Part shown: piece after piece, positions 6,967-25,663 of the stretch
How the letters are laid out: each line of letters opens with the position of its first letter
How positions within the stretch are numbered: the first letter of the stretch is position 1
Source of the DNA: Bacteroidota bacterium
GTDB lineage: Bacteria; Bacteroidota; Bacteroidia; Flavobacteriales; Schleiferiaceae
Assembly: GCA_005786915.1 (NCBI GenBank)
Contig: SYCM01000094.1
Location: 1 to 34,534 of the forward strand
Length of the DNA: 34,534 nucleotides
Direction: 5' to 3'
Translations under genes and position numbers: made by a program
The notes under the pieces: model-generated
Told to the model about the DNA's origin: nothing
The model's database searches: none
Seen by the model: only the letters and a program-made list of their open reading frames with translations

Positions 6967-8056
6967 GTACGAAAGTTACTCGTCGAAACCGCTTAATTTT
7001 GGCACTGTGCGTTACCAAAACTTTAGTTCTCGAAGCCAGCAACTCGACCGCGCCGCACAGGCTGGAGGTTGGATTCTCGAAAACATTGATCCCCAGGGTG
7101 ATTTTCCCTTTTGGGTCGCTCGACACCCACAGGCTCACGGACGGATCCCTCGGGTCGCTTGGTCCATGATGCACGGCAACGAACCGACGGGGTTTGCGGC
7201 GCTTTGTGCGCTGATGGCGGCGGGCGAACCCCACAGCGATTGGACCTTGGTGCCGCTGGTAAACCCCACGGGCATCGATCTTTTTACGCGTTGCACCGCC
7301 TCAGGATTGGATCTAAATCGCTGCGCCCGCCGATCGGGACCGCGTGAGGCGGACCTACTCAAGCACGTAATTCAGTCCAAACCCTTCCGTTTAGCGCTCA
7401 ATCTTCACGACCAGCGCAGCTTGTTTCATCCTACGGGTTCCTCTATCCCAAGTTCGCTCAGCGTTTTGGCGCCCCGGGCGCGTACGCCTCAAGGGGAGTC
7501 GGTTCCCGCCGAAGCACAGGGATGGGCCGGCTGGATCAGTACCTCAATGTCCCGGCGCGAGCCCAACTGGGGGTACGCACGATTTGACGATCAATACTAC
7601 CCCGAGGCCTTCGGAGAATGGTGCCAAGAGCTGGGAATTCTTACCGTAACCGTCGAAACCGGAGTTGCCATAGGCGACTACGCGCGAACCCGCGTAGCCC
7701 AGCAGCTGGGAGACATCCTTATCGAACTTGACCAAATGGAACGGCCACAAGCTAGTTCTTTCACCCACTACCAAGCCCTGCCGTTCAACGCCGCCAACGG
7801 CGTGGATGTGCTCTTGAGCGACGGTGATTCTGAAAGCTACTGGAAGTTCGAAGAAGAGGTCCAGGACCGAGCCTACCGTTGCGGTTTGGCGCGCGTTATT
7901 CCCTCAGAAGGGGCGGAGGTTCCGGTGTACCACCGCGTGGAGTGTGCACCCGACGAGTACCGCATTCTTACCGCTCGCGATCGCTGGACCTCAGTAGAGC
8001 TTTACGCAAGCGCTTCCGAAGGCTTACGCTCCTTGGCCGCGGGACTGCCTAAGTAG
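6965..8056 (+). CDS. M14-like zinc carboxypeptidase / succinylglutamate-desuccinylase-like protein
   Basis: The track ORF 6791..8056 extends antisense into the phoD-like gene, so I chose the ATG at 6965 (MYESYSSKPL...); the GTG at 7007 is an alternative start. It has an HxxE zinc motif (MHGNEPTG), a later His (LNLHDQ) and a catalytic Glu candidate (TVTVETG). No signal peptide is visible. Confidence 0.6.
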   Translation: MYESYSSKPLNFGTVRYQNFSSRSQQLDRAAQAGGWILENIDPQGDFPFWVARHPQAHGRIPRVAWSMMHGNEPTGFAALCALMAAGEPHSDWTLVPLVNPTGIDLFTRCTASGLDLNRCARRSGPREADLLKHVIQSKPFRLALNLHDQRSLFHPTGSSIPSSLSVLAPRARTPQGESVPAEAQGWAGWISTSMSRREPNWGYARFDDQYYPEAFGEWCQELGILTVTVETGVAIGDYARTRVAQQLGDILIELDQMERPQASSFTHYQALPFNAANGVDVLLSDGDSESYWKFEEEVQDRAYRCGLARVIPSEGAEVPVYHRVECAPDEYRILTARDRWTSVELYASASEGLRSLAAGLPK

Positions 8057-8364
8057 GTGAAATCCCTCGCTACTACCTCGGTTCGGTTCACGGTCTGCTG
8101 CTCGCTGTTGGTGTAGCTCGAATAGGCGATACTGCCTTCGATCACGCACAAATCGCCTTTCTTCATGATTTTGCTTGCGCGGACCGCAAGCTTGTTGAAC
8201 ATGACGAACTGATGCCAAAGGGTACGGTCCTCGTACGTGCCCTCGGCATTCTTCACGCGGTCGTGCGTCGCAATGCTGCAGCGCAAGCGAACTACGTCGT
8301 TTTCGAAGTTCTTGATTTCAGGGTCGGTGCCCAAGTAGCCAATAAGTTGAATTTTGTTTTTCAT
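8002..8364 (-). CDS. ssb: Single-stranded DNA-binding protein paralog (OB fold, no acidic C-terminal tip)
   Basis: 120-aa ORF starting MKNKIQLIGYLGTDPEIK, with RTLWHQFVMFNKLA, KKGDLCVIEGSI and NRTEVVARDF, the classic SSB OB-fold pattern. It ends ...AAKERKPSEALA without a DDxPF-type tip. Its last 55 nt overlap the 3' end of the convergent M14-like gene. Confidence 0.8.
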   Translation of the reverse strand: MKNKIQLIGYLGTDPEIKNFENDVVRLRCSIATHDRVKNAEGTYEDRTLWHQFVMFNKLAVRASKIMKKGDLCVIEGSIAYSSYTNSEQQTVNRTEVVARDFTYLGSPAAKERKPSEALA

Positions 8365-8557: not shown

Positions 8558-8935
8558 ATGAACTCCAAAGCATCTAAGTTTTGCTTGAACTGCGGCCTTC
8601 CTGTTTTTGGCCGAGCTGACAAGAAATATTGCGATGATCACTGCCGAAACGACTTTCACAACAGCCAGGCAGTAACCAACTCTCGATTGACCCGCGCCGC
8701 GCACCGCAACCTCCGCCGCAACTACGAAATCCTCTCGGGCGTCGTAGAGGCGGGCATTAGCGAAATCGCCAAAGATGAGCTGCTCGTTTACGGATTTGCT
8801 TCCAAATCGGTCACCGAATTGGAACTTCGAGAAGACGGTACGATGATTTACGGCATTTACGACATCCACTACTTTGAAAAGGGAAACCGGATGATCGAAG
8901 TGTACCGCAAGTCCGATCTGCCGCAATATTGGTAG
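8558..8935 (+). CDS. Hypothetical protein with N-terminal CxxC...CxxHC zinc-ribbon-like motif
   Basis: 125-aa ORF (FCLNCGLPVFGRADKKYCDDHCRNDFHN). By eye its GC content is lower than in the flanking genes (about 47-50% against about 62%). I recognise no family. Confidence 0.55.
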   Translation: MNSKASKFCLNCGLPVFGRADKKYCDDHCRNDFHNSQAVTNSRLTRAAHRNLRRNYEILSGVVEAGISEIAKDELLVYGFASKSVTELELREDGTMIYGIYDIHYFEKGNRMIEVYRKSDLPQYW

Positions 8936-10188: not shown

Positions 10189-10194
10189 AAAAAA

Positions 10195-10226
10195 TTTGCG
10201 CAAATCAATATTGCTAACTATATTAG
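10195..10226 (+). promoter_or_regulatory. Putative promoter of the repressor/polymerase cassette (-33 TTTG at 10195-10198, -7 TATATTAG at 10219-10226)
   Basis: The spacing between the two elements is 20 nt, which fits the established Bacteroidetes sigma-A consensus TTTG-N19-21-TAnnTTTG with one mismatch in the -7 box. An alternative pair is TTG 10211-10213 with TAATTTTA 10232-10239, which would give a nearly leaderless mRNA. Confidence 0.45.
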
Positions 10227-10228
10227 CA
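10212..10228. promoter_or_regulatory. Candidate operator O1: perfect palindrome TGCTAA-N5-TTAGCA
   Basis: Read directly from the sequence as TGCTAACTATATTAGCA. It overlaps the predicted -7 box and ends 17 nt upstream of the repressor ATG (10245). Confidence 0.55.
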
Positions 10229-10243
10229 TACTAATTTTAGCAA
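10229..10243. promoter_or_regulatory. Candidate operator O2: imperfect palindrome TACTAA-N2-TTAGCAA
   Basis: It directly abuts O1. TTAGCAA (10237-10243) is also the exact inverse of TTGCTAA (10211-10217). The region therefore holds four alternating CTAA/TTAG half-sites. Confidence 0.4.
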
Positions 10244-10244
10244 C

Positions 10245-11024
10245 ATGGCACTCGCGGAACAAATTAAAAACTACCGAAAGGCAAAGGCTTGGACCCAGAC
10301 TCAGCTCGCCAAACGCCTTGGGCTCAGCCGAGCTCAAGTGGGATCCTATGAAGAAGGTCGGGCGGAACCCAAGCTCGATTCGCTAAAAGCGATGGCGCAA
10401 CTCTTCGGGTGCAGTATTGACACCCTAGTTTCGGGCGATGCGCGGAGCGCGCACGAGCTTTCGGGGCAGCGGATGCGCGTACTGACCGTGGCCGTCGATC
10501 CCAAATCAGGGCGCGAGCGCGTCACCGTAGTTCCAGTTAAGGCTGCTGCAGGCTATTTGGGCGGCTACGGAGATCTTGATTTTATTGAAGCGCTTCCGCA
10601 GTTTGCCCTTCCGCTTCCGGAGTTTGCCCAGGAAGAAACCCGCAGGGTCTTTCAAATTCAAGGAGACAGCATGCTTCCCGTGGTTTCGGGGTCCTACGTG
10701 ATTTCGAGCTATGTTCAGGACTGGCGAAGCATCAAAACCAACGATCTCTACGTGTTCCTCACGCAGGAGCAGGGCGTGGTGTTTAAACGCGCCATCAACC
10801 GAATCGCTGAGTCGGGCTACATAGACCTGGTTTCGGACAATCCCATCTACGCCCCGTACTCCGTCCACGTAGACGACCTGATTGAAGTATGGAAGGTCCA
10901 GGGATTTATACAGCTAGACGTGAATGCCAAGCCCAGCATGGATCAAGTTATTCTCGCTCGCTTAGAGCACTTGCAGGGCGAAGTGCACGCGCTTCGCCGT
11001 TCGCTTAACCAGCATGTTGCCTGA
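10245..11024 (+). CDS. LexA/CI-like self-cleaving repressor (XRE-family HTH plus S24 peptidase domain)
   Basis: 259-aa ORF with an N-terminal Cro/C1 HTH (WTQTQLAKRLGLSRAQVGSYEEGRAEP). It has an Ala-Gly cleavage-site candidate (PVKAAAGY), a catalytic Ser in QGDSMLP and a Lys in VVFKRA about 39 residues later, as in LexA (S119/K156). It sits immediately upstream of the polymerases. Confidence 0.85.
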   Translation: MALAEQIKNYRKAKAWTQTQLAKRLGLSRAQVGSYEEGRAEPKLDSLKAMAQLFGCSIDTLVSGDARSAHELSGQRMRVLTVAVDPKSGRERVTVVPVKAAAGYLGGYGDLDFIEALPQFALPLPEFAQEETRRVFQIQGDSMLPVVSGSYVISSYVQDWRSIKTNDLYVFLTQEQGVVFKRAINRIAESGYIDLVSDNPIYAPYSVHVDDLIEVWKVQGFIQLDVNAKPSMDQVILARLEHLQGEVHALRRSLNQHVA

Positions 11025-11030
11025 TGCGTG

Positions 11031-12242
11031 ATGGATCGGGTGGTGCTCCACATGGACCTCGACAGCTTCTTTGTGTCGGTGGAACGCCTAATGGACCGGC
11101 GCCTCCATGGAATTCCGGTTTTGGTTGGTGGCCTGAGTGATCGGGGAGTGGTAGCGGCGTGCAGCTACGAAGCCCGGCAAACAGGCGTTCGGTCGGGAAT
11201 GCCCATGCGAATGGCTCGGGACCTCTGCCCAGAAGCGGTAGTCGTGCGGGGCAATTCCATGGAGTACACCAAGCACTCAAAGGTGGTCACCGACATCGTT
11301 CATCAAGCCGTGCCCGTGCTCGAGAAAGCATCTATTGATGAGTTTTACGCAGACCTGAGCGGCATGGACCGCTTTTTTGGGACGTACCAATTTGCCCAAG
11401 AACTGCGCGATCAAGTGATCCGGGAGTCTGGCCTGCCTATTTCCTTCGGGCTCTCTACCAGCAAAACCGTAGCCAAGGTGGCCACTGGAGAAGCTAAGCC
11501 CAACAACCACCGGCACGTGCCCCGGGGTATTGAGCGCCCGTTCATGGCGCCGCTTTCGGTTCGAAAAATACCCATGGTAGGAGAAAAAACCTACCAAACC
11601 CTTCGGGTTCTTGGTGTTCAGCGCATTGCAACGCTGCAAGAAATGCCGGCCGAGATGCTCTACCAGGTGCTGGGGAAGCCCGGACTGGAGCTTTGGAACA
11701 AGGCTCAAGGGGTCGACGACCGTCCGGTTAAGCCCTACAGCGAGCGAAAATCCATTTCTACCGAGCGGACGTTTGAGCAGGACACCTTAGATGAGGTCAA
11801 GCTTCGCGGAATGCTTCTGGCCATGGCCGAAAACCTAGCCTTTCAGTTGCGGCGCGGCCACCGTTTAACCAGCAATGTCGCCGTCCGCATTCGATACGCC
11901 GACTTTCAGACGGTTTCAAGGCAGCGCCAAATTCCCTACACTGCCTCAGACGAAGTGCTGCTTGAGGCGATAGAAGGCTTGTTTCGCCAGCTTCACGACC
12001 GGAGGCAGCGGGTGCGGCTTATCGGCGTGCGCTACAGCGGACTCGTTGGGGGAGGGGAGCAGTTCGGACTATTTGAGGTAGACGACCGCGGGCACCGACT
12101 TAGCGAAGCCATGGACCTCATTCGGTCCCGATACGGAGATCGATCGGTTGTCCGCGCGTTTGGAATGGCGGCCCAAACCATCGGGCGATCGAATCCTTTT
12201 AATGGCGATCCACCGCCGCTTTTAGCCAATCGTAAGCAGTAA
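11031..12242 (+). CDS. dinB: Y-family DNA polymerase IV (DinB type, catalytic residues intact)
   Basis: The track ORF starts at the GTG at 11028; the ATG at 11031 was chosen. It has LHMDLDSFFVSVE (catalytic Asp pair), SIDEFYADL (Asp-Glu) and a little-finger region. QFGLF near residue 345 is a candidate beta-clamp-binding motif. Only 6 nt separate its start from the repressor stop. Confidence 0.9.
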   Translation: MDRVVLHMDLDSFFVSVERLMDRRLHGIPVLVGGLSDRGVVAACSYEARQTGVRSGMPMRMARDLCPEAVVVRGNSMEYTKHSKVVTDIVHQAVPVLEKASIDEFYADLSGMDRFFGTYQFAQELRDQVIRESGLPISFGLSTSKTVAKVATGEAKPNNHRHVPRGIERPFMAPLSVRKIPMVGEKTYQTLRVLGVQRIATLQEMPAEMLYQVLGKPGLELWNKAQGVDDRPVKPYSERKSISTERTFEQDTLDEVKLRGMLLAMAENLAFQLRRGHRLTSNVAVRIRYADFQTVSRQRQIPYTASDEVLLEAIEGLFRQLHDRRQRVRLIGVRYSGLVGGGEQFGLFEVDDRGHRLSEAMDLIRSRYGDRSVVRAFGMAAQTIGRSNPFNGDPPPLLANRKQ

Positions 12243-12334
12243 ATTGAGGCGATAGTATTTTTCTATTGTTGTTTTCAAAAGTCTTAAATTCAGATCTTTA
12301 GATTATAATTTTTAAAGTATTAAATTAATTAAAT

Positions 12335-13114
12335 ATGTGCGGACGCTACGTTCAGGTTTCCAAGCTCGAAGTACTCGAGAAGCGCTTCGAAGCAGAAGCA
12401 ACGCAACCCGAATGGTGGCAGCCCAACGCCAATGTGGCCCCTGGAACCCGGGCACCCATAATCACCTCAGATGCCCCAAAGTCGATTCAGTGGTACCAGT
12501 TTGGCTTTCGCCCGAGCTGGGGAACGGCCCAAATGATGTTCCTCAACGCACGCGCTGAGGGCGACCACAACCCCGAGAACGACCCCGGGTACCGAGGAGC
12601 CAAGGGAATCATCCAAAAACCAAGCTTTCGAAAAGCCATTCGAAGCCAGCGCTGCCTCGTGCTGGCTGACGCGTTTATCGAGGGACCCTTTGATCGAAAA
12701 CTCAGCGAGCCCTACCTCGTCTACCTCAAAGGCAAGGAACGGCCGTTTGCCATGGCTGGGGTGTTGGACGCCTGGGTCGACCCCGACACGCAGCGCCCGA
12801 CGTACTCGTTTGCAATCATCACCACGACGGCCAACGAGGTGCTTCAGCACATTCGGCATCCGCGCTCGCCCGTCATCCTGCCGCGCTCGGCGGAGTCCGC
12901 TTGGTTGTCGCCCGACACGCCCCTCGCTGAAATTACCGACTTGCTTGCCCCATGGCCTTCAGAGGGCATGAATGCATACCCCATTAGTCCCGCAATTAAG
13001 CGCCCTTCGGCGCAGGGGCTGGAGTTGCTTCAGCCCATTGGGCCGCGCGTAATGCCTGAAGAAGAGCTCCGCCTCACCAGCCATATTGAGCTGCAGGGCG
13101 CCAAACCTCGTTAA
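12335..13114 (+). CDS. SOS response-associated peptidase (SRAP; YedK/HMCES family abasic-site processing protein)
   Basis: 259-aa ORF beginning MCGRY (catalytic Cys2). NARAE, LADAFIEG (Glu) and IRHPRSPVILP (His) match the conserved SRAP active-site positions. Confidence 0.9.
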   Translation: MCGRYVQVSKLEVLEKRFEAEATQPEWWQPNANVAPGTRAPIITSDAPKSIQWYQFGFRPSWGTAQMMFLNARAEGDHNPENDPGYRGAKGIIQKPSFRKAIRSQRCLVLADAFIEGPFDRKLSEPYLVYLKGKERPFAMAGVLDAWVDPDTQRPTYSFAIITTTANEVLQHIRHPRSPVILPRSAESAWLSPDTPLAEITDLLAPWPSEGMNAYPISPAIKRPSAQGLELLQPIGPRVMPEEELRLTSHIELQGAKPR

Positions 13115-13145
13115 ATGCCGGAGCGTGCGCATTACCCATACCGCT

Positions 13146-16100
13146 ATGAGCATGCACTTCGGGCTGTATGCCCCCGAAGACGTACTTCGCTTTGCCGAGC
13201 AATGGGGCGGCGGAACCCGGCTCATCGCCGCTGAGGTCAACAGCTCAGGCGGATGGCTGCCGCTCCTTCGCCAGGCGCAGATTCCGCTTCAGCCGGCGGT
13301 CGATTGGCGAGCGGGCGGACTCCGTACCGCAGTCTTTTTACCGCGATCTATGGACGCCTACCGCTTTCTGATGCAGTGGGTGAGCGAGATGCGGTTGACG
13401 AATCGAGTAGGGGACTGCGGCGACTGGTTGCGCGGACCGCTGCATCCCGACGTCGACGTGGTTTTTCCGATCCAGCGGGCGCCGCAGCGCCCGCTGGGGC
13501 CGCGCGAATGGTTGGGCGTGCACGACCACGAACAGCTCCGGGCGCAACGGCACCCACAACCCGAGCGAGCGCTGGCATGGAAAACCTGCGTATTTGCCCG
13601 CCCTGAAGACCCCGAATTGCACCGGGTCCTTCGGGCGATCCACCGAAACGGAACCCTGGCCAACCTTCCAGTGCACGAAGTCCTCGAGGAGCGCGACCCA
13701 TGGTGGGAGTCCGCAGAACGCACCCAGCAGCGCTTCGAGCCCTGGATTTGGCGGCAAACAGAGCGCTTCCTTGCGGAACTTCCCGACTGGAACCTTGCAC
13801 AATGGCGTGGGAACGGGAACCAAAACCAAGCAACCTACACCGGGCGGCGCAGCAAGGACCGAGCTCTGCTCCGCATGCTGTGCGAAGACGCGCTCCCCGA
13901 GCGCTACCCCGGGCGCGACCGCGACCCCGTCCTAAAGGCACGGCTCGAAAAGGAACTCAAGCTCATCGAGCAGAAGGACTTCGTCGCGTACTTCCTGCTG
14001 AACTGGGACGTGGTCCGCTACGCCCAAAAGCAGCATTTTTTTTACGTAGGGCGGGGGAGCGGAGCCAACTCCATGGTAGCCTATCTTCTTAAAATTACGA
14101 ACGTTGACCCTATTGAATTAGATCTTTACTTTGAGCGATTCATCAACCTCTACCGCAGCGCTCCACCGGACTTTGACCTCGACTTTTCGTGGCGCGACCG
14201 GCCACGGCTAACCGAATACCTGTTTACCCGCTTTCCGCACACCGCGCTGCTTGGCGCCGTCAGTACGTTCCAGCACCGCGCGGTCGTTCGCGAACTCGGC
14301 AAAGTATGGGGGCTTCCCAAGTCAGACATCGACGAATTAGCCGACGGAAAACTCCGCGACCGCGACGAAACGGCTCGGGCCATCCTGCGCTACGGCCGCT
14401 ACCTGCACGGGCTCCCCAACCGCATGACCTTGCACTCGAGCGGAATTCTCGTCGCCAACGCCCCACTCACCACTTGGTCGACCACCTTCATGCCGCCCAA
14501 AGGCTTTACTACGGTCGACATGGACATGCACACCGCCGAAGACGTCGGGCTGCACAAATTCGATATTTTGGGCCAGCGCGGACTGAGTAAAATTTCAGAA
14601 ACCCTAGCCACACTGCATCGAGCGGGCATTCCCACCGCCGACATTCACGACAGCCAGCGCTTCAAACAGGATCCGCACTGCCTCGAACTGCTGCGCAACG
14701 GAGGCGCCATGGGCTGTTTTTATGTCGAATCGCCGGCCATGCGCATGCTCATGACCAAGCTTCAAACCTCGAACTACCTCGAGTTGGTCGCCGCCAGCTC
14801 TGTCATTCGCCCCGGCGTCTCGTCGTCGGGCATGATGAAAGCCTACATCGACCGGCACCGCAGTCCGGAACTCCGCGCGCAGGCAAACCCCGACCTGCTG
14901 CGCATCCTGCCGGAGACCTACGGCGTTATGGTCTACCAAGAAGACGTAATCCGCGTGGCGCACGAATACGCGGGGCTGAGCTTGGCCGAAGCCGACGTGC
15001 TTCGCCGCGGAATGTCCGGAAAATTCCGCTCCCGCGCCGAATTTCAGCAGGTAGCGCAGCAGTTTTTTGCCAACTGCGCCGAGCGCGGACACTCTTCTGA
15101 AGCCGCCCGCGAAGTGTGGCGCCAAATCGAAAGCTTTGCCGGCTACGCCTTTGCCAAAGGACACTCCGCGTCGTATGCCGTGGAAAGCTTCCAAAGCCTC
15201 TACTTGAAAGCCTACTTCCCCGTGCCGTTCATGGTTGCCAACGTCAACAACGGCGGGGGCTACTACCGGGCTGAGCACTACCTCAACGAGGCGCGCCGGC
15301 ACGGAGCGCGCATCGAACCGCCTTGCGTGAACGACGGGCGAACGTTTACGGTGCTGCAGCCCAGCCTCCGGGTGGTTCTCGGAACCGACCGCATCCGCAG
15401 CTTTGACGCCGAATTTGGCCGGCGAATTGACCGCGCCCGGCAGGAGGGAGGTCCCTTCACCGACCTCGACAACTTCATCGACCGACTGCACCAGCCGGGA
15501 GCGCCCGTCGCCCTCGACTCGCTGCTGCTCCTGATCCGGGCTGAAGCTTTTCGCTTCACGGGCCGCTCCATGCGCACGCTTCTTTGGGCGGCCCACCGGC
15601 GCCTGGGCCACCGCCCGCCGCCGGCGCCCGGCCCCAGCCTGTTCGACGAAGGCGAAGCGCCCAAGTCGACCCTGAACGAAGTCCCTTTACTGAAAACCAG
15701 TGAATTAGAGCGAGCCTACGAGCAAATCGAGCTTTTTGGATTTCCGCTTTGCGATCCGTTTTGGTTATTCCAACTTCCTGAAATTCAATCCTCAATTGAC
15801 CCCGAGAACTGGGCGAAGCACCACGGAACCTCCATCGAGACCCTGGGCTACCTCGTAAGCCTCAAAAACACCAAAACGCAACGCGGCGACTGGATGCAAA
15901 TCGGAACTTTTGAGGACCGCCGCGGCGTTGTATTCGACGTGGTCCTTTTTCCGCCCGCCGTGGCGCGCCACGCCATACGCCGCCGCGGGATTTACTTGAT
16001 GCGCGGTCGAATTTCGGTCGAATACGGCTACGCCAGCCTTGACGTCCAGTACCTGGAGCGCGCAGCCGCCAAATTGGATCCGCGGTTTGACGAGACGCCT

Positions 16101-16187
16101 GCACACCTGATGCCGGTGGCCACGCGGTCAGGCCGCGGCATGACGGTGGGACGAAATCCGATTAAATCGCTGCTCCGCGGTTCCTAA
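13146..16187 (+). CDS. dnaE2: Error-prone DNA polymerase DnaE2 (ImuC), C-family alpha-subunit paralog
   Basis: The track ORF starts at 13086; the ATG at 13146 (MSMHFGLYAPED...) was chosen because it lies after the SRAP stop. Core pol III alpha blocks are VGRGSGANSMVAYLLKITNVDP, PPDFDLDFSWRDR, KFDILGQRGLS, CFYVESPAMRML, SVIRPG and VYQEDVIRVA. The length of about 1013 aa is typical of DnaE2. Confidence 0.9.
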   Translation: MSMHFGLYAPEDVLRFAEQWGGGTRLIAAEVNSSGGWLPLLRQAQIPLQPAVDWRAGGLRTAVFLPRSMDAYRFLMQWVSEMRLTNRVGDCGDWLRGPLHPDVDVVFPIQRAPQRPLGPREWLGVHDHEQLRAQRHPQPERALAWKTCVFARPEDPELHRVLRAIHRNGTLANLPVHEVLEERDPWWESAERTQQRFEPWIWRQTERFLAELPDWNLAQWRGNGNQNQATYTGRRSKDRALLRMLCEDALPERYPGRDRDPVLKARLEKELKLIEQKDFVAYFLLNWDVVRYAQKQHFFYVGRGSGANSMVAYLLKITNVDPIELDLYFERFINLYRSAPPDFDLDFSWRDRPRLTEYLFTRFPHTALLGAVSTFQHRAVVRELGKVWGLPKSDIDELADGKLRDRDETARAILRYGRYLHGLPNRMTLHSSGILVANAPLTTWSTTFMPPKGFTTVDMDMHTAEDVGLHKFDILGQRGLSKISETLATLHRAGIPTADIHDSQRFKQDPHCLELLRNGGAMGCFYVESPAMRMLMTKLQTSNYLELVAASSVIRPGVSSSGMMKAYIDRHRSPELRAQANPDLLRILPETYGVMVYQEDVIRVAHEYAGLSLAEADVLRRGMSGKFRSRAEFQQVAQQFFANCAERGHSSEAAREVWRQIESFAGYAFAKGHSASYAVESFQSLYLKAYFPVPFMVANVNNGGGYYRAEHYLNEARRHGARIEPPCVNDGRTFTVLQPSLRVVLGTDRIRSFDAEFGRRIDRARQEGGPFTDLDNFIDRLHQPGAPVALDSLLLLIRAEAFRFTGRSMRTLLWAAHRRLGHRPPPAPGPSLFDEGEAPKSTLNEVPLLKTSELERAYEQIELFGFPLCDPFWLFQLPEIQSSIDPENWAKHHGTSIETLGYLVSLKNTKTQRGDWMQIGTFEDRRGVVFDVVLFPPAVARHAIRRRGIYLMRGRISVEYGYASLDVQYLERAAAKLDPRFDETPAHLMPVATRSGRGMTVGRNPIKSLLRGS

Positions 16188-23276: not shown

Positions 23277-23826
23277 GATCCAAAGTAACAGCACAACCCG
23301 TAGAATCGTTCTTACCGGCGCCCCCTCCACCGGTAAAACCTCTGTGGTGGCGCGGCTACAGGAGATGGGATACCCTGTGCTGCACGAGATTTCACGCGAC
23401 ATCATCACCCAAGAAGGCACCAAGCTGGGCGGCGAGGACCCTTGGCGAAATTTATTGGCATTTTCTGAAGTCATCTGGAAGCTGCGAAGCGCCCAACACC
23501 GAGAAGCGGCTCAGTACGTCGGTGACGTCTTTTTTGACCGAAGCTTGCTGGACACCCTTAGCTACCTACAAGCGGGCGACAAACCCATTCCCGAGTGGAT
23601 GGACCCTACCCCCTTCCCCTACCACTACAAAGTGTTCATTTTTCCGCCCTGGGAAGCCATTTACCGAACCGACGACGCCCGATGGGAGCCCTTTGAAACC
23701 GCGGTTCAAGTGCACGAATCGCTGGTGTCTACCTACTCTTCGTTGGGATACGAACTGATTGAGGTTCCGCGCAAGTCGGTCGAAGAACGCGTCGAGTTCA
23801 TTTTGAATGTCGTCCAGCGCACCTGA
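23275..23826 (+). CDS. AAA_28/NadR-like P-loop ATPase
   Basis: Start at the ATG at 23275 (MIQSN...); the TTG at 23263 is the track start. It has Walker A LTGAPSTGKTS and FFDRSLLDTLSY. The 3' end overlaps recQ by 20 nt. Confidence 0.65.
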   Translation: MIQSNSTTRRIVLTGAPSTGKTSVVARLQEMGYPVLHEISRDIITQEGTKLGGEDPWRNLLAFSEVIWKLRSAQHREAAQYVGDVFFDRSLLDTLSYLQAGDKPIPEWMDPTPFPYHYKVFIFPPWEAIYRTDDARWEPFETAVQVHESLVSTYSSLGYELIEVPRKSVEERVEFILNVVQRT

Positions 23827-25663
23827 CCGCCTTTCGGCCGTACTCTCCTCGGTTTGGGGCTACGCGGACTTTCGACCGCTGCAGCGACCCATTGCCGAAT
23901 CGGTACTCTCGGGCCGCGACACCGTGGCCCTGTTGCCCACCGGGGGCGGCAAGTCGCTGTGCTTTCAAGTACCCGGATTGGTCCTCGGCGGCACCACGGT
24001 GGTGGTTTCTCCGCTCATCTCGCTCATGGCGGACCAGGTTCAGCAGCTCGTACAGCGCGGAATCGACGCGCGCTCCTTGGCCGGCGACCTCAAGCCCGCC
24101 GACTGGATGCGGTTGCAGCAGCACCCTCCTCAGTTCGCCTACGTTTCGCCCGAACGGGCCCAATCCAAGAACTTCCTGGCCGTAATGGAGCACTGGGATG
24201 TGCGGATTCTGGCGGTCGACGAGGCCCACTGCGTCAGCCAGTGGGGGCACGACTTTAGGCCGCAGTACTTGCTCCTTCGTTCCCTGCGCAATGCCTTGCC
24301 GGGAATCCCCTGCCTCGCCCTGACCGCCTCGGCGACGCCCGAAGTGCTGCGCGACATCGTGGCGTCGCTTGGGCTGCAAGAAGCCCAGGTGTTTCAAGCA
24401 TCGTTTGCGCGTCCCAATCTGAGTTGGACGGTGCGCGTAGTTCCCGACGTAGTTCAGGCCTGCGTAGCGTCTTTGCGTCCCGAGGACGGTCGGCAAATCG
24501 TCTACGTGCGGAGCCGCGCCGGCGCGGCCAAATGGGCCGACGCCCTTCGGCAGCGCCGCATCCCCGCGGCGGCCTACCATGCGGGTCTTTCACGGGAGGA
24601 GCGCATGCGGCTGCAGACGGCATGGTCTCAAGGCGAGGTCCGCACGATGGTGGCCACCACGGCCTTTGGAATGGGCATCGACCAACCCAACGTTCGCCAA
24701 GTGGTGCACGTCGAAGTGCCCGAGAGTCCTGAGGCCCTCTACCAAGAAATGGGACGCGGAGGCCGAGACGGCCAGCCCGCTCATGCCCTCGTACTGCTCG
24801 ACGCGAAGTCCTTGGACCAATTCCGCCGCAAAATGGAGCGCAGCATGCCCGAGTTCTCGACCTGGGTGCGTCAGTACCACGAACTCGCCAGCAGGGCCCA
24901 AATTGCGGTAGGCGACGGACCTGGGGTAGCGCTCAAGCCGCAGTCGCCCGCTGAAGACCTGCTGCTCCGCATAATGGCGCGCAAGGGGCTCGCCGATGCC
25001 ATGGAAGGGCTTGAAACCAGCGTGCGGGTCCAGCTGCGCTACGGCGGCAGCGACCTCGTCGACGTTGCCGAGGCCAACCCGAAATACTCCGAACTGCTGT
25101 ATGCCCTGGCTCGCAAAGTTCCCGGAGTGGTGCACCACGCCGAAACCGTCGACCTCAGTGCGCTGGCGAGCTTTGGGTCGTGGACCCTTGCCGAGGTGCG
25201 CTCCCTCCTGTTTTCAGCCGCCGATTTAGGCCTGCTAGATGCCGAATCTGGGGCGTCGGGGAGCGCCTACCGCTGGATGCATCCGCGCTACCCCCAGCCG
25301 ACCAGCCCCATACCTAAATCTGAATGGGAAGTCGACCGAAACCGTATTCTACGGCGGGCGCGAGCCGTGTTGGCCGTGCTCGATCCGCACGCGGTGGCAT
25401 GCCGTTTTGTGCAGCTCCTCGCCTACTTTGGCGAGGAGGGCAGTGATTGCGGACAGTGCGATGTGTGTACGCGCCGCGACCAACCTAATGATGCCGAACG
25501 CCAATTGCTCGACGCCCTTCGGTCAGCTCCCGATCAACGGATGCAGATTGCCGCAGCCGCCCAGCTGCTCCCCTTGTCTCGGCCCGCGTTCCTGACGCTC
25601 CTCACCCAGGGTTGCGAGTGGGGATGGTGGAACGTGGACGCCGACGGATGGATGCGGCTTTAA
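23807..25663 (+). CDS. recQ: RecQ-family ATP-dependent DNA helicase (atypical C-terminal architecture)
   Basis: 618-aa ORF with FRPLQ, LLPTGGGKSLCFQVP, AVDEAHCVSQWGHDFRP, LTASAT, TTAFGMGID and QEMGRGGRDG. A Cys cluster CRF-x13-CGQCDVC lies near residues 532-554. Confidence 0.88.
   Translation: MSSSAPDRLSAVLSSVWGYADFRPLQRPIAESVLSGRDTVALLPTGGGKSLCFQVPGLVLGGTTVVVSPLISLMADQVQQLVQRGIDARSLAGDLKPADWMRLQQHPPQFAYVSPERAQSKNFLAVMEHWDVRILAVDEAHCVSQWGHDFRPQYLLLRSLRNALPGIPCLALTASATPEVLRDIVASLGLQEAQVFQASFARPNLSWTVRVVPDVVQACVASLRPEDGRQIVYVRSRAGAAKWADALRQRRIPAAAYHAGLSREERMRLQTAWSQGEVRTMVATTAFGMGIDQPNVRQVVHVEVPESPEALYQEMGRGGRDGQPAHALVLLDAKSLDQFRRKMERSMPEFSTWVRQYHELASRAQIAVGDGPGVALKPQSPAEDLLLRIMARKGLADAMEGLETSVRVQLRYGGSDLVDVAEANPKYSELLYALARKVPGVVHHAETVDLSALASFGSWTLAEVRSLLFSAADLGLLDAESGASGSAYRWMHPRYPQPTSPIPKSEWEVDRNRILRRARAVLAVLDPHAVACRFVQLLAYFGEEGSDCGQCDVCTRRDQPNDAERQLLDALRSAPDQRMQIAAAAQLLPLSRPAFLTLLTQGCEWGWWNVDADGWMRL

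What the first reader, a model, noticed from the sequence alone, without database searches (positions are those of the whole stretch)
10189..16187. SOS-type mutagenesis cassette of non-canonical composition: XRE/S24 repressor, active DinB, SRAP, DnaE2
Seen in the sequence: four same-strand genes.
- An XRE-HTH/S24 protein with an Ala-Gly site, a GDSM serine and an FKR lysine.
- Six nt later, a Y-family polymerase whose catalytic DLD and SIDE acidic residues are all present.
- After a 92-bp AT-rich spacer, an SRAP protein with Cys2, Glu and His in place.
- Thirty-one nt later, a DnaE2 with intact DxD and KFD polymerase motifs.

Established knowledge: the widely distributed damage-inducible cassette is lexA-imuA-imuB-dnaE2. 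In it, ImuB is a catalytically dead Y-family adaptor and ImuA is RecA-like. SRAP/YedK/HMCES proteins covalently shield abasic sites in ssDNA and were named for their genomic linkage to SOS genes.

Inference: no ImuA-like ORF exists here, the ImuB slot holds a polymerase that looks catalytically competent, and the regulator is CI/XRE-type rather than a winged-helix LexA. This looks like a variant, possibly LexA-independent, mutasome that couples abasic-site capture to two translesion polymerases. I cannot tell from here whether this exact architecture has been characterised experimentally.
Basis: partly seen in the sequence, partly recalled or inferred. Interest (0 to 1): 0.7.

Follow-up and report, generated by a model that had tools for sequence, protein, structure and literature searches.

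The report
Bacteroidota SOS operon: repressor, two polymerases, SRAP
This is a real four-gene DNA-damage operon (self-cleaving repressor, active Y-family polymerase, abasic-site-shielding SRAP, second Pol III alpha copy), but its parts, their linkage and its regulator have already been described for Bacteroidota, so it is one more example of a known, biochemically untested system.

Summary
The interpretation overstates novelty.

- **Regulator.** It is a Bacteroidota "non-canonical LexA" (Sánchez-Osuna 2021). It has a CI-type HTH, an S24 domain with A102-G103/S142/K181, and a terminal helix. The family's operator, CTAA-N5-TTAG, has its only perfect copy in the window 19 nt before the repressor's ATG.
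- **Polymerases.** The Y-family enzyme is 59% identical to Cellulophaga algicola ADV50500. The C-family enzyme is collinear with ADV50501. These two are the type pair of the predicted ImuA/ImuB-free "PolY-DnaE2B-RecA" mutasome (Timinskas & Venclovas 2019; Timinskas 2026). The Y-family enzyme also carries a clamp motif, a RecA-N-terminus-like motif and a conserved tail.
- **Linkage.** In 68 of 80 Bacteroidota species genomes the two polymerase genes are adjacent on one strand.
- **SRAP.** It lies between them in only 12 of 83 loci. A different SRAP subfamily sits nearby in 7 more. This linkage is recurrent but optional, and SRAP-DinB-DnaE operons were listed in 2013.

No ImuA, ImuB or UmuD gene is in the window.

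Two things are new here. A conserved ATAG-N7-CTAT palindrome follows the Y-polymerase gene in 8 of 8 syntenic genomes. Relatives' SRAPs carry clamp-binding-like C-terminal tails.

Verdict: a new member of a known kind, of modest interest.

The parts
10189..10244 (+). Promoter/operator region upstream of the repressor gene. It is 56 nt and 25% G+C.
   Evidence: The layout is conserved in window, L001-L004 and L081-L083: a TTTG/TTG element, then the operator, then a conserved TAATTT(T/A)A box. Reading these as Bacteroidota -33/-7 promoter elements is inference from memory and was not tested.
10214..10226 (.). CTAACTATATTAG, a perfect CTAA-N5-TTAG operator of the Bacteroidetes non-canonical LexA. 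It lies 19 nt before the repressor ATG.
   Evidence: It is the only perfect copy in 34.5 kb (0.17 expected in the whole window). Copies at the same position occur in L001-L004, L007, L043 and L081-L083. The motif was defined by EMSA and mutagenesis in Pontibacter actiniarum (PMC8565304).
10245..11024 (+). Non-canonical LexA-type repressor, 259 aa. It has an XRE/CI-type HTH (aa 2-63), a flexible linker carrying cleavage site A102-G103 (nt 10548-10553), an S24 domain with S142 (10668-10670) and K181 (10785-10787), and a terminal alpha-helix (aa 232-258).
   Evidence: Pfam. Residues are invariant in 20-31 homologues. The AlphaFold model has mean pLDDT 71: HTH 85-93, the S24 core (aa 133-222) about 70-91, the preceding linker much lower. 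Foldseek matches the C-terminal domain to LexA (rmsd 2-3 A) and the N-terminal domain to P22 C2 (TM 0.9). More than 7000 homologues exist, named XRE/LexA family.
11031..12242 (+). Active Y-family DNA polymerase of the 'Bacteroid-PolY2' group, 403 aa. Catalytic residues are D9, D11, D103, E104. It carries a beta-clamp-type motif QFGLF (aa 344-348, nt 12060-12074), a RecA-N-terminus-like motif (aa 357-378, nt 12099-12164) and a conserved tail TIGRSNPFNGDPPPLLANRKQ (nt 12177-12239).
   Evidence: It is 59% identical over 392 aa to C. algicola ADV50500. A profile of the C-terminal region hits only the E. coli RecA N-terminus in the whole PDB (weak, because the score sums over fused repeats).
12243..12334 (+). 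92-nt spacer, 18.5% G+C. It may hold an internal regulatory region or promoter for srap-dnaE2.
   Evidence: There is no Rfam hit and no unusual RNA folding (z = -0.18).
12252..12266 (.). Conserved palindrome ATAGTATTTTTCTAT (ATAG-N7-CTAT), 10 nt after the polymerase stop codon. Its function is unknown.
   Evidence: It is the only copy in the window (0.08 expected). It sits at the same position in 8 of 8 syntenic genomes, whether or not srap is present.
12335..13114 (+). SRAP (YedK/HMCES family) protein, 259 aa, with C2, N71, E116 and H175. Unlike many relatives, it has no C-terminal QxxLF tail.
   Evidence: Pfam PF02586 at 2e-44. It aligns with YedK and with Bacteroides 2f20. For residues and tails.
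13146..16187 (+). DnaE2B-type C-family polymerase, 1013 aa. It has a reduced, degenerate PHP domain (aa 1 to about 220), a palm with D342, D344 and D473, fingers, an (HhH)2 domain, a PSLF clamp-like motif (F833) and an OB fold (aa 896-972). It lacks the tau-binding C-terminal domain.
   Evidence: The AlphaFold model has pLDDT 72. Foldseek matches full-length Pol III alpha structures (TM up to 0.65). The N-terminal 389 aa are collinear with C. algicola DnaE2B ADV50501 (35% identity, E 4e-71).

Best explanation
This is a chromosomal, damage-inducible (SOS-type) operon of an uncultured Schleiferiaceae/Cryomorphaceae-like Flavobacteriales bacterium.

Proposed mechanism:
1. The first gene encodes the phylum's LexA analogue, a CI-type HTH fused to an S24 autopeptidase. 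As a dimer it binds the CTAA-N5-TTAG operator in its own promoter and represses the operon.
2. After DNA damage, RecA-ssDNA filaments stimulate self-cleavage at A102-G103 by the S142/K181 dyad. The operon is then transcribed.
3. The operon delivers an active, clamp-binding Y-family polymerase. Its C-terminal RecA-N-terminus-like motif is predicted to dock on RecA.
4. It also delivers a DnaE2B polymerase with a reduced PHP domain. Together with RecA, these two form the predicted ImuA/ImuB-free 'PolY-DnaE2B-RecA' mutasome.
5. In this lineage it also delivers an SRAP enzyme. By homology with YedK/HMCES, this enzyme covalently caps abasic sites in single-stranded DNA.

Shown here: gene content, catalytic residues, motifs, operator, family membership, and conserved linkage.

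Inferred from homologues or the literature: repression and cleavage, damage induction, complex formation, and the SRAP chemistry.

Unknown: whether SRAP cooperates mechanistically with the polymerases.
For: - Domains and residues.
- Operator: the only perfect CTAA-N5-TTAG in the window lies 19 nt before the repressor ATG. It is conserved at that position in relatives whose DnaE2 is only 47-89% identical.
- Regulator family: it was validated by EMSA, site-directed mutagenesis and mitomycin-C RT-qPCR in other Bacteroidetes, where error-prone polymerase genes were the most strongly induced (PMC8565304). The predicted structure shows the family's three-part fold plus its terminal helix.
- Polymerase pair: PolY is 59% identical to ADV50500, and DnaE2 is collinear with ADV50501. 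These are the type PolY-DnaE2B-RecA pair, for which the authors report AlphaFold complex models above their acceptance thresholds.
- Conserved linkage: polY and dnaE2 are adjacent on the same strand in 68 of 80 species genomes, in both gene orders.
- PolY C-terminus: the QxxLF motif, the RecA-NT-like motif and the tail are all conserved.
- SRAP linkage: SRAP lies between the polymerase genes in 12 loci, and a second SRAP subfamily lies nearby in 7 more.
- Native location: cassette G+C is 59% against 58% for the window, and synteny is conserved as HI0933-like | cassette | TPR | gyrA | clpB.
Against: - There is no expression, binding, cleavage or polymerase data for this organism.
- No member of the PolY-DnaE2B-RecA class has been characterised biochemically or genetically in the literature I could search.
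- The RecA-NT similarity is statistically weak taken alone.
- The 92-nt AT-rich spacer and its conserved palindrome suggest that srap-dnaE2 may have separate control. If so, 'one operon, one repressor' may be too simple.
- SRAP is absent from most cassettes, including close syntenic relatives L004, L082 and L083. It is therefore not an obligatory component.
- Absence of ImuA/ImuB could be tested only within 34.5 kb, not genome-wide.
Confidence: 0.8

Rival explanations
1. The four genes are co-regulated, but their products act independently. They share an SOS promoter only. The Y-family enzyme works as an ordinary stand-alone Pol IV, the DnaE paralogue works on its own, and SRAP works alone. 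No multi-subunit mutasome forms.
For: - NCBIfam places the Y-family protein just above the Pol IV equivalog cutoff (259.8 against 256).
- No complex of this type has been demonstrated experimentally.
- SOS genes often cluster without their products interacting.
Against: - The two polymerase genes stay adjacent in 68 of 80 genomes despite inversion of their order and a change of regulator type.
- PolY carries a conserved RecA-NT-like motif and an invariant extra tail that stand-alone DinB lacks.
- Published AlphaFold complex models for the type pair score above the authors' acceptance thresholds.
Confidence: 0.25
2. SRAP is a structural or regulatory subunit of the mutasome. It could act as an autopeptidase switch, a PolY-binding small subunit or a clamp-tethered partner, rather than as an independent abasic-site shield.
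For: - SRAPs of two subfamilies have become linked to the cassette independently.
- Many linked SRAPs in relatives end in a clamp-binding-like QxxLF motif.
- A UmuC-SRAP-like-RecA complex has been predicted in other phyla.
- The original autopeptidase-switch proposal is in PMC3765255.
Against: - The window's SRAP has the full catalytic set of YedK (C2/N71/E116/H175) and lacks the QxxLF tail.
- SRAP is missing from most cassettes, including syntenic relatives.
- Published biochemistry on YedK/HMCES supports abasic-site crosslinking, not autoproteolysis (titles and abstracts).
Confidence: 0.1
3. The cassette is cargo of a prophage or other mobile element, and the CI-like repressor is the element's lysogeny repressor.
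For: - The N-terminal domain is closest to the phage P22 C2 and CI repressors.
- NCBIfam's best partial hit is phage RstR.
Against: - There are no phage or mobility genes in the window. The neighbours are housekeeping genes: sucC, ssb, gyrA, clpB, a recQ-like helicase, fmt.
- G+C equals the genome background.
- The same chromosomal synteny holds in relatives down to 50% DnaE2 identity.
- There is no tRNA attachment site.
Confidence: 0.02
4. It is a decayed canonical lexA-imuA-imuB-dnaE2 cassette that has lost imuA.
For: The gene order resembles regulator, Y-family, C-family.
Against: - The Y-family protein has all catalytic residues and no ImuB-C domain.
- The C-family protein scores 364 bits against a cutoff of 939 for the NCBIfam error-prone DnaE2 model.
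- It groups with DnaE2B, a class reported only in genomes lacking imuA/imuB.
- The regulator is not a winged-helix LexA.
Confidence: 0.02

Closest known systems
Predicted PolY-DnaE2B-RecA mutasome of Bacteroidetes. The type example is Cellulophaga algicola ADV50500/ADV50501 (Timinskas & Venclovas 2019, PMC6511836; Timinskas et al. 2026, PMC12926913).
   Same: - An active Y-family polymerase of the Bacteroid-PolY2 group (59% identity).
- A RecA-NT-like motif and a clamp motif.
- An adjacent DnaE2B with a reduced PHP domain.
- No ImuA, ImuB or ImuB-C.
   Different: - Here the regulator gene heads the same operon.
- An SRAP gene is inserted between the two polymerase genes.
- A conserved ATAG-N7-CTAT palindrome follows polY.
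- The PHP N-terminus is further eroded (SHTAYSFRFG reduced to SMHFG).
Non-canonical LexA of Bacteroidetes, CTAA-N5-TTAG class. The type example is Pontibacter actiniarum WP_025606010.1 (Sánchez-Osuna et al. 2021, PMC8565304).
   Same: - CI-type HTH.
- S24 domain with Ala-Gly and Ser/Lys.
- Terminal alpha-helix.
- Perfect CTAA-N5-TTAG in its own promoter.
- Control of error-prone polymerase genes.
   Different: The protein was not compared directly with the type protein, because that sequence was not on hand. The size of the regulon in this genome is unknown.
Canonical lexA-imuA-imuB-dnaE2 cassette (Caulobacter, Pseudomonas, Mycobacterium).
   Same: A damage-inducible cassette that pairs a Y-family protein, which carries clamp and RecA-NT motifs, with a non-essential DnaE paralogue.
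   Different: - No ImuA.
- The Y-family member is catalytically intact and has no ImuB-C beta-barrel.
- The DnaE paralogue is DnaE2B, not DnaE2A.
- The regulator is not a winged-helix LexA.
SRAP / YedK / HMCES abasic-site crosslinking proteins, and the SRAP-DinB(-LexA, -DnaE paralogue) operons catalogued by Aravind et al. 2013 (PMC3765255).
   Same: The fold family, the Cys2/Asn/Glu/His active site, and the genomic linkage to SOS polymerases.
   Different: - It is embedded inside the PolY-DnaE2B cassette.
- The window protein lacks the clamp-binding-like tail that many cassette-linked relatives have.
- HMCES uses a PIP box for PCNA instead (from memory).
E. coli Pol V (UmuD'2C-RecA).
   Same: A Y-family polymerase whose C-terminal RecA-NT-like motif recruits a RecA monomer, followed by a conserved tail that binds a partner.
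   Different: There is no UmuD. The presumed partner of the tail is a C-family polymerase, which is inference.

Membership tests
Bacteroidetes non-canonical LexA (Sánchez-Osuna 2021) | N-terminal multi-helical XRE/CI-type HTH (PF01381), not a winged helix. | tested here: met
   HTH_3 at 4e-16. Sequence match to the P22 C2 repressor. The model has five helices with pLDDT 85-93, and Foldseek gives TM 0.9 to P22 C2.
Bacteroidetes non-canonical LexA (Sánchez-Osuna 2021) | C-terminal S24 peptidase domain with an Ala-Gly cleavage site and a Ser/Lys dyad. | tested here: met
   Peptidase_S24 scores 31 bits against a cutoff of 23.3. A102-G103, S142 and K181 are invariant in 20 homologues. The C-terminal domain superposes on the LexA C-terminal domain at rmsd 2-3 A.
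Bacteroidetes non-canonical LexA (Sánchez-Osuna 2021) | A terminating alpha-helical segment after the S24 domain. | tested here: met
   The model has a helix at aa 232-258, with pLDDT about 70-86 over aa 231-259.
Bacteroidetes non-canonical LexA (Sánchez-Osuna 2021) | A palindromic dyad-N5-dyad operator (CTAA-N5-TTAG class) in its own promoter. | tested here: met
   CTAACTATATTAG at 10214-10226 is the only perfect copy in the window. It is conserved in relatives.
Bacteroidetes non-canonical LexA (Sánchez-Osuna 2021) | Sequence-specific DNA binding, RecA-stimulated self-cleavage, and damage-induced derepression. | not testable with these tools
   These need EMSA, a cleavage assay and RT-qPCR. 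They have been shown only for homologues in other genera.
PolY-DnaE2B-RecA module (Timinskas 2019/2026) | A Y-family polymerase of the Bacteroid-PolY2 group with an intact active site. | tested here: met
   59% identity over 392 aa to ADV50500. D9, D11, D103 and E104 are present and conserved in 71 homologues.
PolY-DnaE2B-RecA module (Timinskas 2019/2026) | A RecA-N-terminus-like motif, plus a beta-clamp motif, in the PolY C-terminal extension. | tested here: met
   QFGLF at aa 344-348 and LSEAMDLIRSRYGDRSVVRAFG at aa 357-378 are conserved. The C-terminal profile hits only RecA N-terminal residues in the PDB, at E 1e-3. That score is inflated by fused repeats, so the support is weak but specific.
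PolY-DnaE2B-RecA module (Timinskas 2019/2026) | A DnaE2B-type C-family polymerase: intact DDD triad, reduced PHP, no tau-binding C-terminal domain. | tested here: met
   D342, D344 and D473 are present. It is collinear with ADV50501 from residue 2. There is no Pfam PHP hit, but a weak profile alignment to the E. coli PHP domain exists. The alignment ends at the OB fold. 'Reduced PHP in Bacteroidetes DnaE2' is reported in PMC3919608. No phylogeny was built.
PolY-DnaE2B-RecA module (Timinskas 2019/2026) | Conserved adjacency of polY and dnaE2. | tested here: met
   68 of 80 genome loci have them adjacent on the same strand: 46 as polY then dnaE2, 22 as dnaE2 then polY.
PolY-DnaE2B-RecA module (Timinskas 2019/2026) | The genome lacks imuA and imuB. 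| tested here: inconclusive
   No RecA/ImuA-like, ImuB or UmuD ORF is in the 34.5-kb window. The rest of the genome is not available.
PolY-DnaE2B-RecA module (Timinskas 2019/2026) | Physical complex of PolY, DnaE2B and RecA. | not testable with these tools
   Only single-chain prediction is available here. The literature offers AlphaFold models only.
Canonical ImuA-ImuB-DnaE2 cassette | A RecA-like ImuA gene in the cassette. | tested here: not met
   There is no such ORF between or around the four genes.
Canonical ImuA-ImuB-DnaE2 cassette | A catalytically dead Y-family ImuB with a C-terminal ImuB-C domain. | tested here: not met
   The catalytic residues are intact. The C-terminal extension is only about 65 aa and consists of motifs, not a domain.
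Canonical ImuA-ImuB-DnaE2 cassette | A DnaE2 matching the curated error-prone polymerase model. | tested here: not met
   NF004225 scores 364 bits against a cutoff of 939. The DnaE1 model scores slightly higher at 415.5 bits.
SRAP / YedK / HMCES | SRAP fold (PF02586) with N-terminal Cys2 and the Asn/Glu/His active site. | tested here: met
   PF02586 at 2e-44 over the full length. C2, N71, E116 and H175 align with YedK.
SRAP / YedK / HMCES | Covalent thiazolidine crosslink to abasic sites in ssDNA. | not testable with these tools
   This is a biochemical property, inferred from homology only.

The most novel reading that the evidence does not exclude
In this lineage the cassette may be a three-enzyme abasic-site tolerance unit rather than just a polymerase pair.
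- SRAP would cap abasic sites exposed in ssDNA.
- The clamp-bound PolY-DnaE2B(-RecA) machine would be specialised to insert opposite, and extend past, the resulting SRAP-DNA or peptide adducts.
- The conserved ATAG-N7-CTAT site in the AT-rich spacer would give srap-dnaE2 a second regulatory input, separate from the non-canonical LexA operator.
- The clamp-binding-like QxxLF tails on relatives' SRAPs would make bacterial SRAPs clamp clients, analogous to the HMCES-PCNA interaction.
Probability: 0.12. Interest if true: 0.65.

Novelty: new member of a known kind. Interest (0 to 1): 0.28.

Why it matters
The PolY-DnaE2B-RecA module shows how a DnaE2-type mutagenic polymerase can work without ImuA and ImuB. 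It pairs two catalytically competent polymerases, which specialists have already flagged as unusual. No member has been studied at the bench.

This window adds one more example, from an uncultured marine-type Flavobacteriales lineage. It shows the regulator, both polymerases and an SRAP fused into one transcription unit.

Its practical value is modest. It confirms that published bioinformatic classes can be recognised from raw sequence. It also contributes two small leads: a conserved internal palindrome, and clamp-motif tails on linked SRAPs. Either could guide experiments in cultivable relatives.

Tried and rejected
- **Rfam and tRNA.** A whole-window Rfam scan and a tRNA scan found nothing.
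- **RNA structure in the spacer.** Folding the 92-nt spacer as RNA gave z = -0.18, so an RNA element is unlikely.
- **Promoters and terminators.** The sigma-70 promoter and terminator scan gave background numbers only. It is not suited to Bacteroidota promoters.
- **Second operator.** A one-mismatch search for a second CTAA-N5-TTAG operator in the spacer found nothing above chance.
- **S24 domain by sequence.** A phmmer search of the PDB with the repressor found only HTH matches. The S24/LexA similarity had to be shown through the predicted structure.
- **PHP domain.** Pfam gives no PHP hit for the C-family polymerase. I considered a missing or replaced N-terminal domain. I rejected that idea for three reasons: a profile alignment to the E. 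coli PHP domain, the alpha/beta model, and collinearity with C. algicola DnaE2B.
- **Prophage origin and decayed imuAB cassette.** Both were rejected (see rival explanations).
- **ORF between repressor and polY in L008.** A roughly 700-aa ORF there has no Pfam domain and was not pursued.
- **Literature on Bacteroidota PolY/DnaE2.** I found no experimental work.
- **Literature on clamp motifs in bacterial SRAPs.** I found none. The library is incomplete, so neither absence proves novelty.

Full report
**1. Observation**

The window carries four consecutive + strand ORFs at 10245-11024, 11031-12242, 12335-13114 and 13146-16187. They are separated by 6, 92 and 31 nt.

Pfam assigns them as follows:
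- HTH_3 plus Peptidase_S24.
- IMS plus IMS_C.
- SRAP.
- DNA_pol3_alpha, DNA_pol3_finger and HHH_6.

NCBIfam calls the second protein DNA polymerase IV, just above the equivalog cutoff (259.8 against 256). The fourth scores far below the cutoffs of both the replicative model (415 against 1002) and the error-prone DnaE model (364 against 939).

- Repressor: A102-G103, S142, K181.
- Y-family polymerase: D9, D11, D103, E104.
- SRAP: C2, N71, E116, H175.
- C-family polymerase: D342, D344, D473.

These residues align with the catalytic residues of E. coli Pol IV, YedK and Taq/E. coli Pol III alpha. They are invariant or nearly so in the homologue sets.

**2. The regulator**

The upstream 56 nt are 25% G+C. 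They contain CTAACTATATTAG at 10214-10226, 19 nt before the ATG. This is the only perfect CTAA-N5-TTAG in 34.5 kb.

That palindrome is one of two operators defined for the "non-canonical LexA" family of Bacteroidetes. These are CI-like HTH plus S24 proteins. EMSA, site-directed mutagenesis and mitomycin-C RT-qPCR showed that they repress SOS genes, and error-prone polymerase genes were the most strongly induced (PMC8565304).

The operator recurs at the same position in relatives (L001-L004, L007, L043, L081-L083).

An AlphaFold model of the window protein has mean pLDDT 71. It shows:
- a five-helix HTH;
- a low-confidence linker that holds the cleavage site;
- an S24 beta-domain;
- a final helix at aa 232-258. 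[quoted passage not shown]

Foldseek matches the C-terminal domain to LexA and the N-terminal domain to the P22 C2 repressor. More than 7000 homologues exist, almost all from Bacteroidota where a source names the organism.

So the regulator is not a LexA homologue by DNA-binding domain. It is the phylum's functional LexA.

**3. The two polymerases**

I scanned one genome per GTDB species with a profile of the C-family protein. This returned 80 Bacteroidota loci.
- In 68 loci a close homologue of the window's Y-family polymerase (55-94% identical) lies next to the DnaE paralogue on the same strand.
- The order is polY then dnaE2 in 46 loci, and dnaE2 then polY in 22.
- The linkage persists while the regulator type changes. 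Loci carry CTAA-N5-TTAG, tandem GGA-N5-TCC, or CTAC-N5-GTAG palindromes.

After the little-finger domain, the Y-family protein carries three conserved C-terminal features:
- a conserved QxxLF clamp motif (QFGLF, aa 344-348);
- a motif that resembles the RecA N-terminal helix-strand (aa 357-378);
- a nearly invariant tail (NPFNGxPPPLLAN).

A profile of this C-terminal region hits nothing in the PDB except the N-terminus of E. coli RecA. The score is modest and is inflated by the fused RecA repeats of those entries.

This is exactly the "Bacteroid-PolY2" polymerase that Timinskas and Venclovas (2019) found coupled to DnaE2 without ImuA or ImuB-C. [quoted passage not shown] The system was renamed DnaE2B-PolY-RecA in 2026 and supported there by AlphaFold complex models.

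The type sequences are in that paper's supplement. The window PolY is 59% identical to C. algicola ADV50500 over 392 residues. The window DnaE protein is collinear with ADV50501 from residue 2, at 35% identity over the diverged N-terminal 389 residues.

The missing Pfam PHP hit is explained by the reduced PHP domain already reported for Bacteroidetes DnaE2. Three results support this:
- a family profile still aligns weakly with the E. coli PHP domain, and then continuously through to the OB fold, but not to the tau-binding domain;
- the model has an alpha/beta N-terminal domain and a C-terminal OB fold;
- the model matches full-length Pol III alpha structures.

**4. SRAP**

The SRAP has the full active site of YedK.

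Its linkage to the cassette is recurrent but optional:
- The same subfamily lies between polY and dnaE2 in 12 of 83 loci (L001-3, L005-8, L031, L043, L049, L060, L081).
- A different subfamily (26-34% identical, starting MCY/MCF rather than MCGRY) lies within a few kb in 7 more loci.
- Close syntenic relatives L004, L082 and L083 lack it.

So the evidence supports co-regulation and a shared damage context. It does not support a demonstrated mechanistic coupling.

**5. Context**

All other large ORFs of the window are housekeeping or unassigned. They include sucC/sucD, an NMN transporter, an SSB paralogue, an HI0933-like flavoprotein, a TPR protein, gyrA, clpB, a RecQ-like helicase and fmt. None is ImuA/RecA-like, ImuB or UmuD.

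Cassette G+C (59%) equals the window's (58%). The order HI0933-like | cassette | TPR | gyrA | clpB is kept in relatives down to about 50% DnaE2 identity. The cassette is therefore native chromosomal DNA, not a prophage.

The closest relatives are MAGs labelled Schleiferiaceae or Cryomorphaceae.

**6. Mechanism**

Shown here:
- gene content, active sites and motifs;
- the operator;
- family membership;
- conserved linkage.

Inferred from experiments on homologues:
- repression through the operator;
- RecA-stimulated self-cleavage;
- damage induction.

Inferred from published computational work:
- PolY docks on RecA through its RecA-NT-like motif and pairs with DnaE2B;
- both enzymes can use the beta clamp (QFGLF in PolY, PSLF in DnaE2B).

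Inferred from YedK/HMCES biochemistry:
- SRAP crosslinks to abasic sites in ssDNA.

Unknown:
- which polymerase inserts and which extends;
- what the invariant PolY tail binds;
- whether SRAP cooperates with either polymerase.

**7. What is not yet explained**

The 92-nt spacer (18.5% G+C) begins with a palindrome, ATAG-N7-CTAT, 10 nt after the polY stop codon.
- It is the only copy in the window.
- It sits at the same place in all eight genomes of the syntenic clade, whether or not srap follows.
- A second partly conserved dyad lies about 25 nt downstream.
- It is not a stable RNA structure and not a known RNA family.

A protein-binding site at an internal promoter for (srap-)dnaE2 is my best guess, and it is untested.

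Separately, many cassette-linked SRAPs in relatives end in QxxLF after a basic linker. The same is true of 15 of the 105 full-length SRAP cluster representatives closest to the window protein. [quoted passage not shown] **8. Verdict**

The finding is real and correctly described. It is a further member of systems already published: the regulator in 2021, the polymerase pair in 2019 and 2026, and the SRAP linkage in 2013.

It remains biochemically uncharacterised as a class. That keeps some interest alive, but this instance from an uncultured organism adds little beyond two small leads.

Interest is 0.28. Novelty: a new member of a known kind.

Noticed in passing
window 12252-12266; L001 7107, L002 7111, L003 7110, L004 7875, L081 3437, L082 4319, L083 4399: The palindrome ATAG-N7-CTAT lies just after the polY stop codon in 8 of 8 syntenic genomes, with or without srap downstream. 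It is the only copy in the window, and 13 scattered copies occur in 1.25 Mb of other loci. A second partly conserved dyad (AATACT..AGTATT-like) lies about 25 nt further on. Its function is unknown; it may be an internal operator or promoter.
   Followed up: partly
SRAP C-termini in L005, L006, L008, L031, L035, L043, L049, L059 (also L007, L010, L018, L034, L072); representatives P0241-P0390: Cassette-linked SRAPs of two subfamilies end in a clamp-binding-like QxxLF motif after a basic linker. Examples are GQQSLF, EQGSLF and GQLGLF. So do 15 of the 105 full-length nearest SRAP cluster representatives. The window SRAP (12335-13114) and those of L001-3 and L081 are 259 aa and lack this tail. I found no paper in the held library describing it.
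   Followed up: partly
L010, L018, L021, L023, L025, L028: intergenic region between the divergent repressor gene and dnaE2: In Flavobacteriaceae loci where a repressor paralogue is divergent from dnaE2-polY, the shared intergenic region carries CTAC-N5-GTAG palindromes instead of CTAA-N5-TTAG or GGA-N5-TCC. This is a further operator variant with the same dyad-N5-dyad geometry.
   Followed up: partly
L014, L019, L020, L024, L029, L030, L037, L039, L042, L044, L048, L053, L054, L062, L071, L077: about 40-140 nt upstream of the first polymerase gene: Tandem pairs of GGA-N5-TCC, offset by exactly 19 nt, precede the polY-dnaE2 or dnaE2-polY pair. No repressor gene detectable with the window repressor lies next to them, except a divergent paralogue in L054. 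This fits the second operator class reported in 2021.
   Followed up: partly
window 13146-13300, compared with L002/L003 and C. algicola ADV50501: The PHP N-terminus of the window's DnaE2B is eroded further than in relatives. The motif SHTAYSFRFG/CHSYYSLRFG is reduced to SMHFG, and TDINN has become AEVNS. Any residual metal binding is very unlikely.
   Followed up: partly
window 8002-8364, - strand: A short SSB paralogue of 120 aa (PF00436 at 3e-23) ends in ...KPSEALA. It has no acidic C-terminal tip. It lies 1.9 kb upstream of the cassette, and no CTAA-N5-TTAG operator is next to it.
   Followed up: no
window 8558-8935, + strand: A 125-aa ORF with a CxxC...CxxxC cysteine pattern near its N-terminus has no Pfam match. 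It lies between the SSB paralogue and the HI0933-like gene.
   Followed up: no
L008 3635-5800 (similar gaps in L031 and L060): In Crocinitomicaceae-like loci, about 2.2 kb between the repressor gene and polY holds an ORF of roughly 700 aa, open on both strands. Neither reading has a Pfam domain.
   Followed up: no
L082 7545-8156 and L083 9830-10438, - strand: In the relatives that lack srap, an HhH-GPD family DNA glycosylase gene lies downstream of dnaE2: immediately in L082, and after one intervening gene in L083.
   Followed up: no
window 23807-25663, + strand: A RecQ-like helicase of 618 aa has its RecQ zinc-binding hit at aa 529-555. That is about 200 residues after the Helicase_C domain (aa 224-322), which suggests a long insertion.
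   Followed up: no
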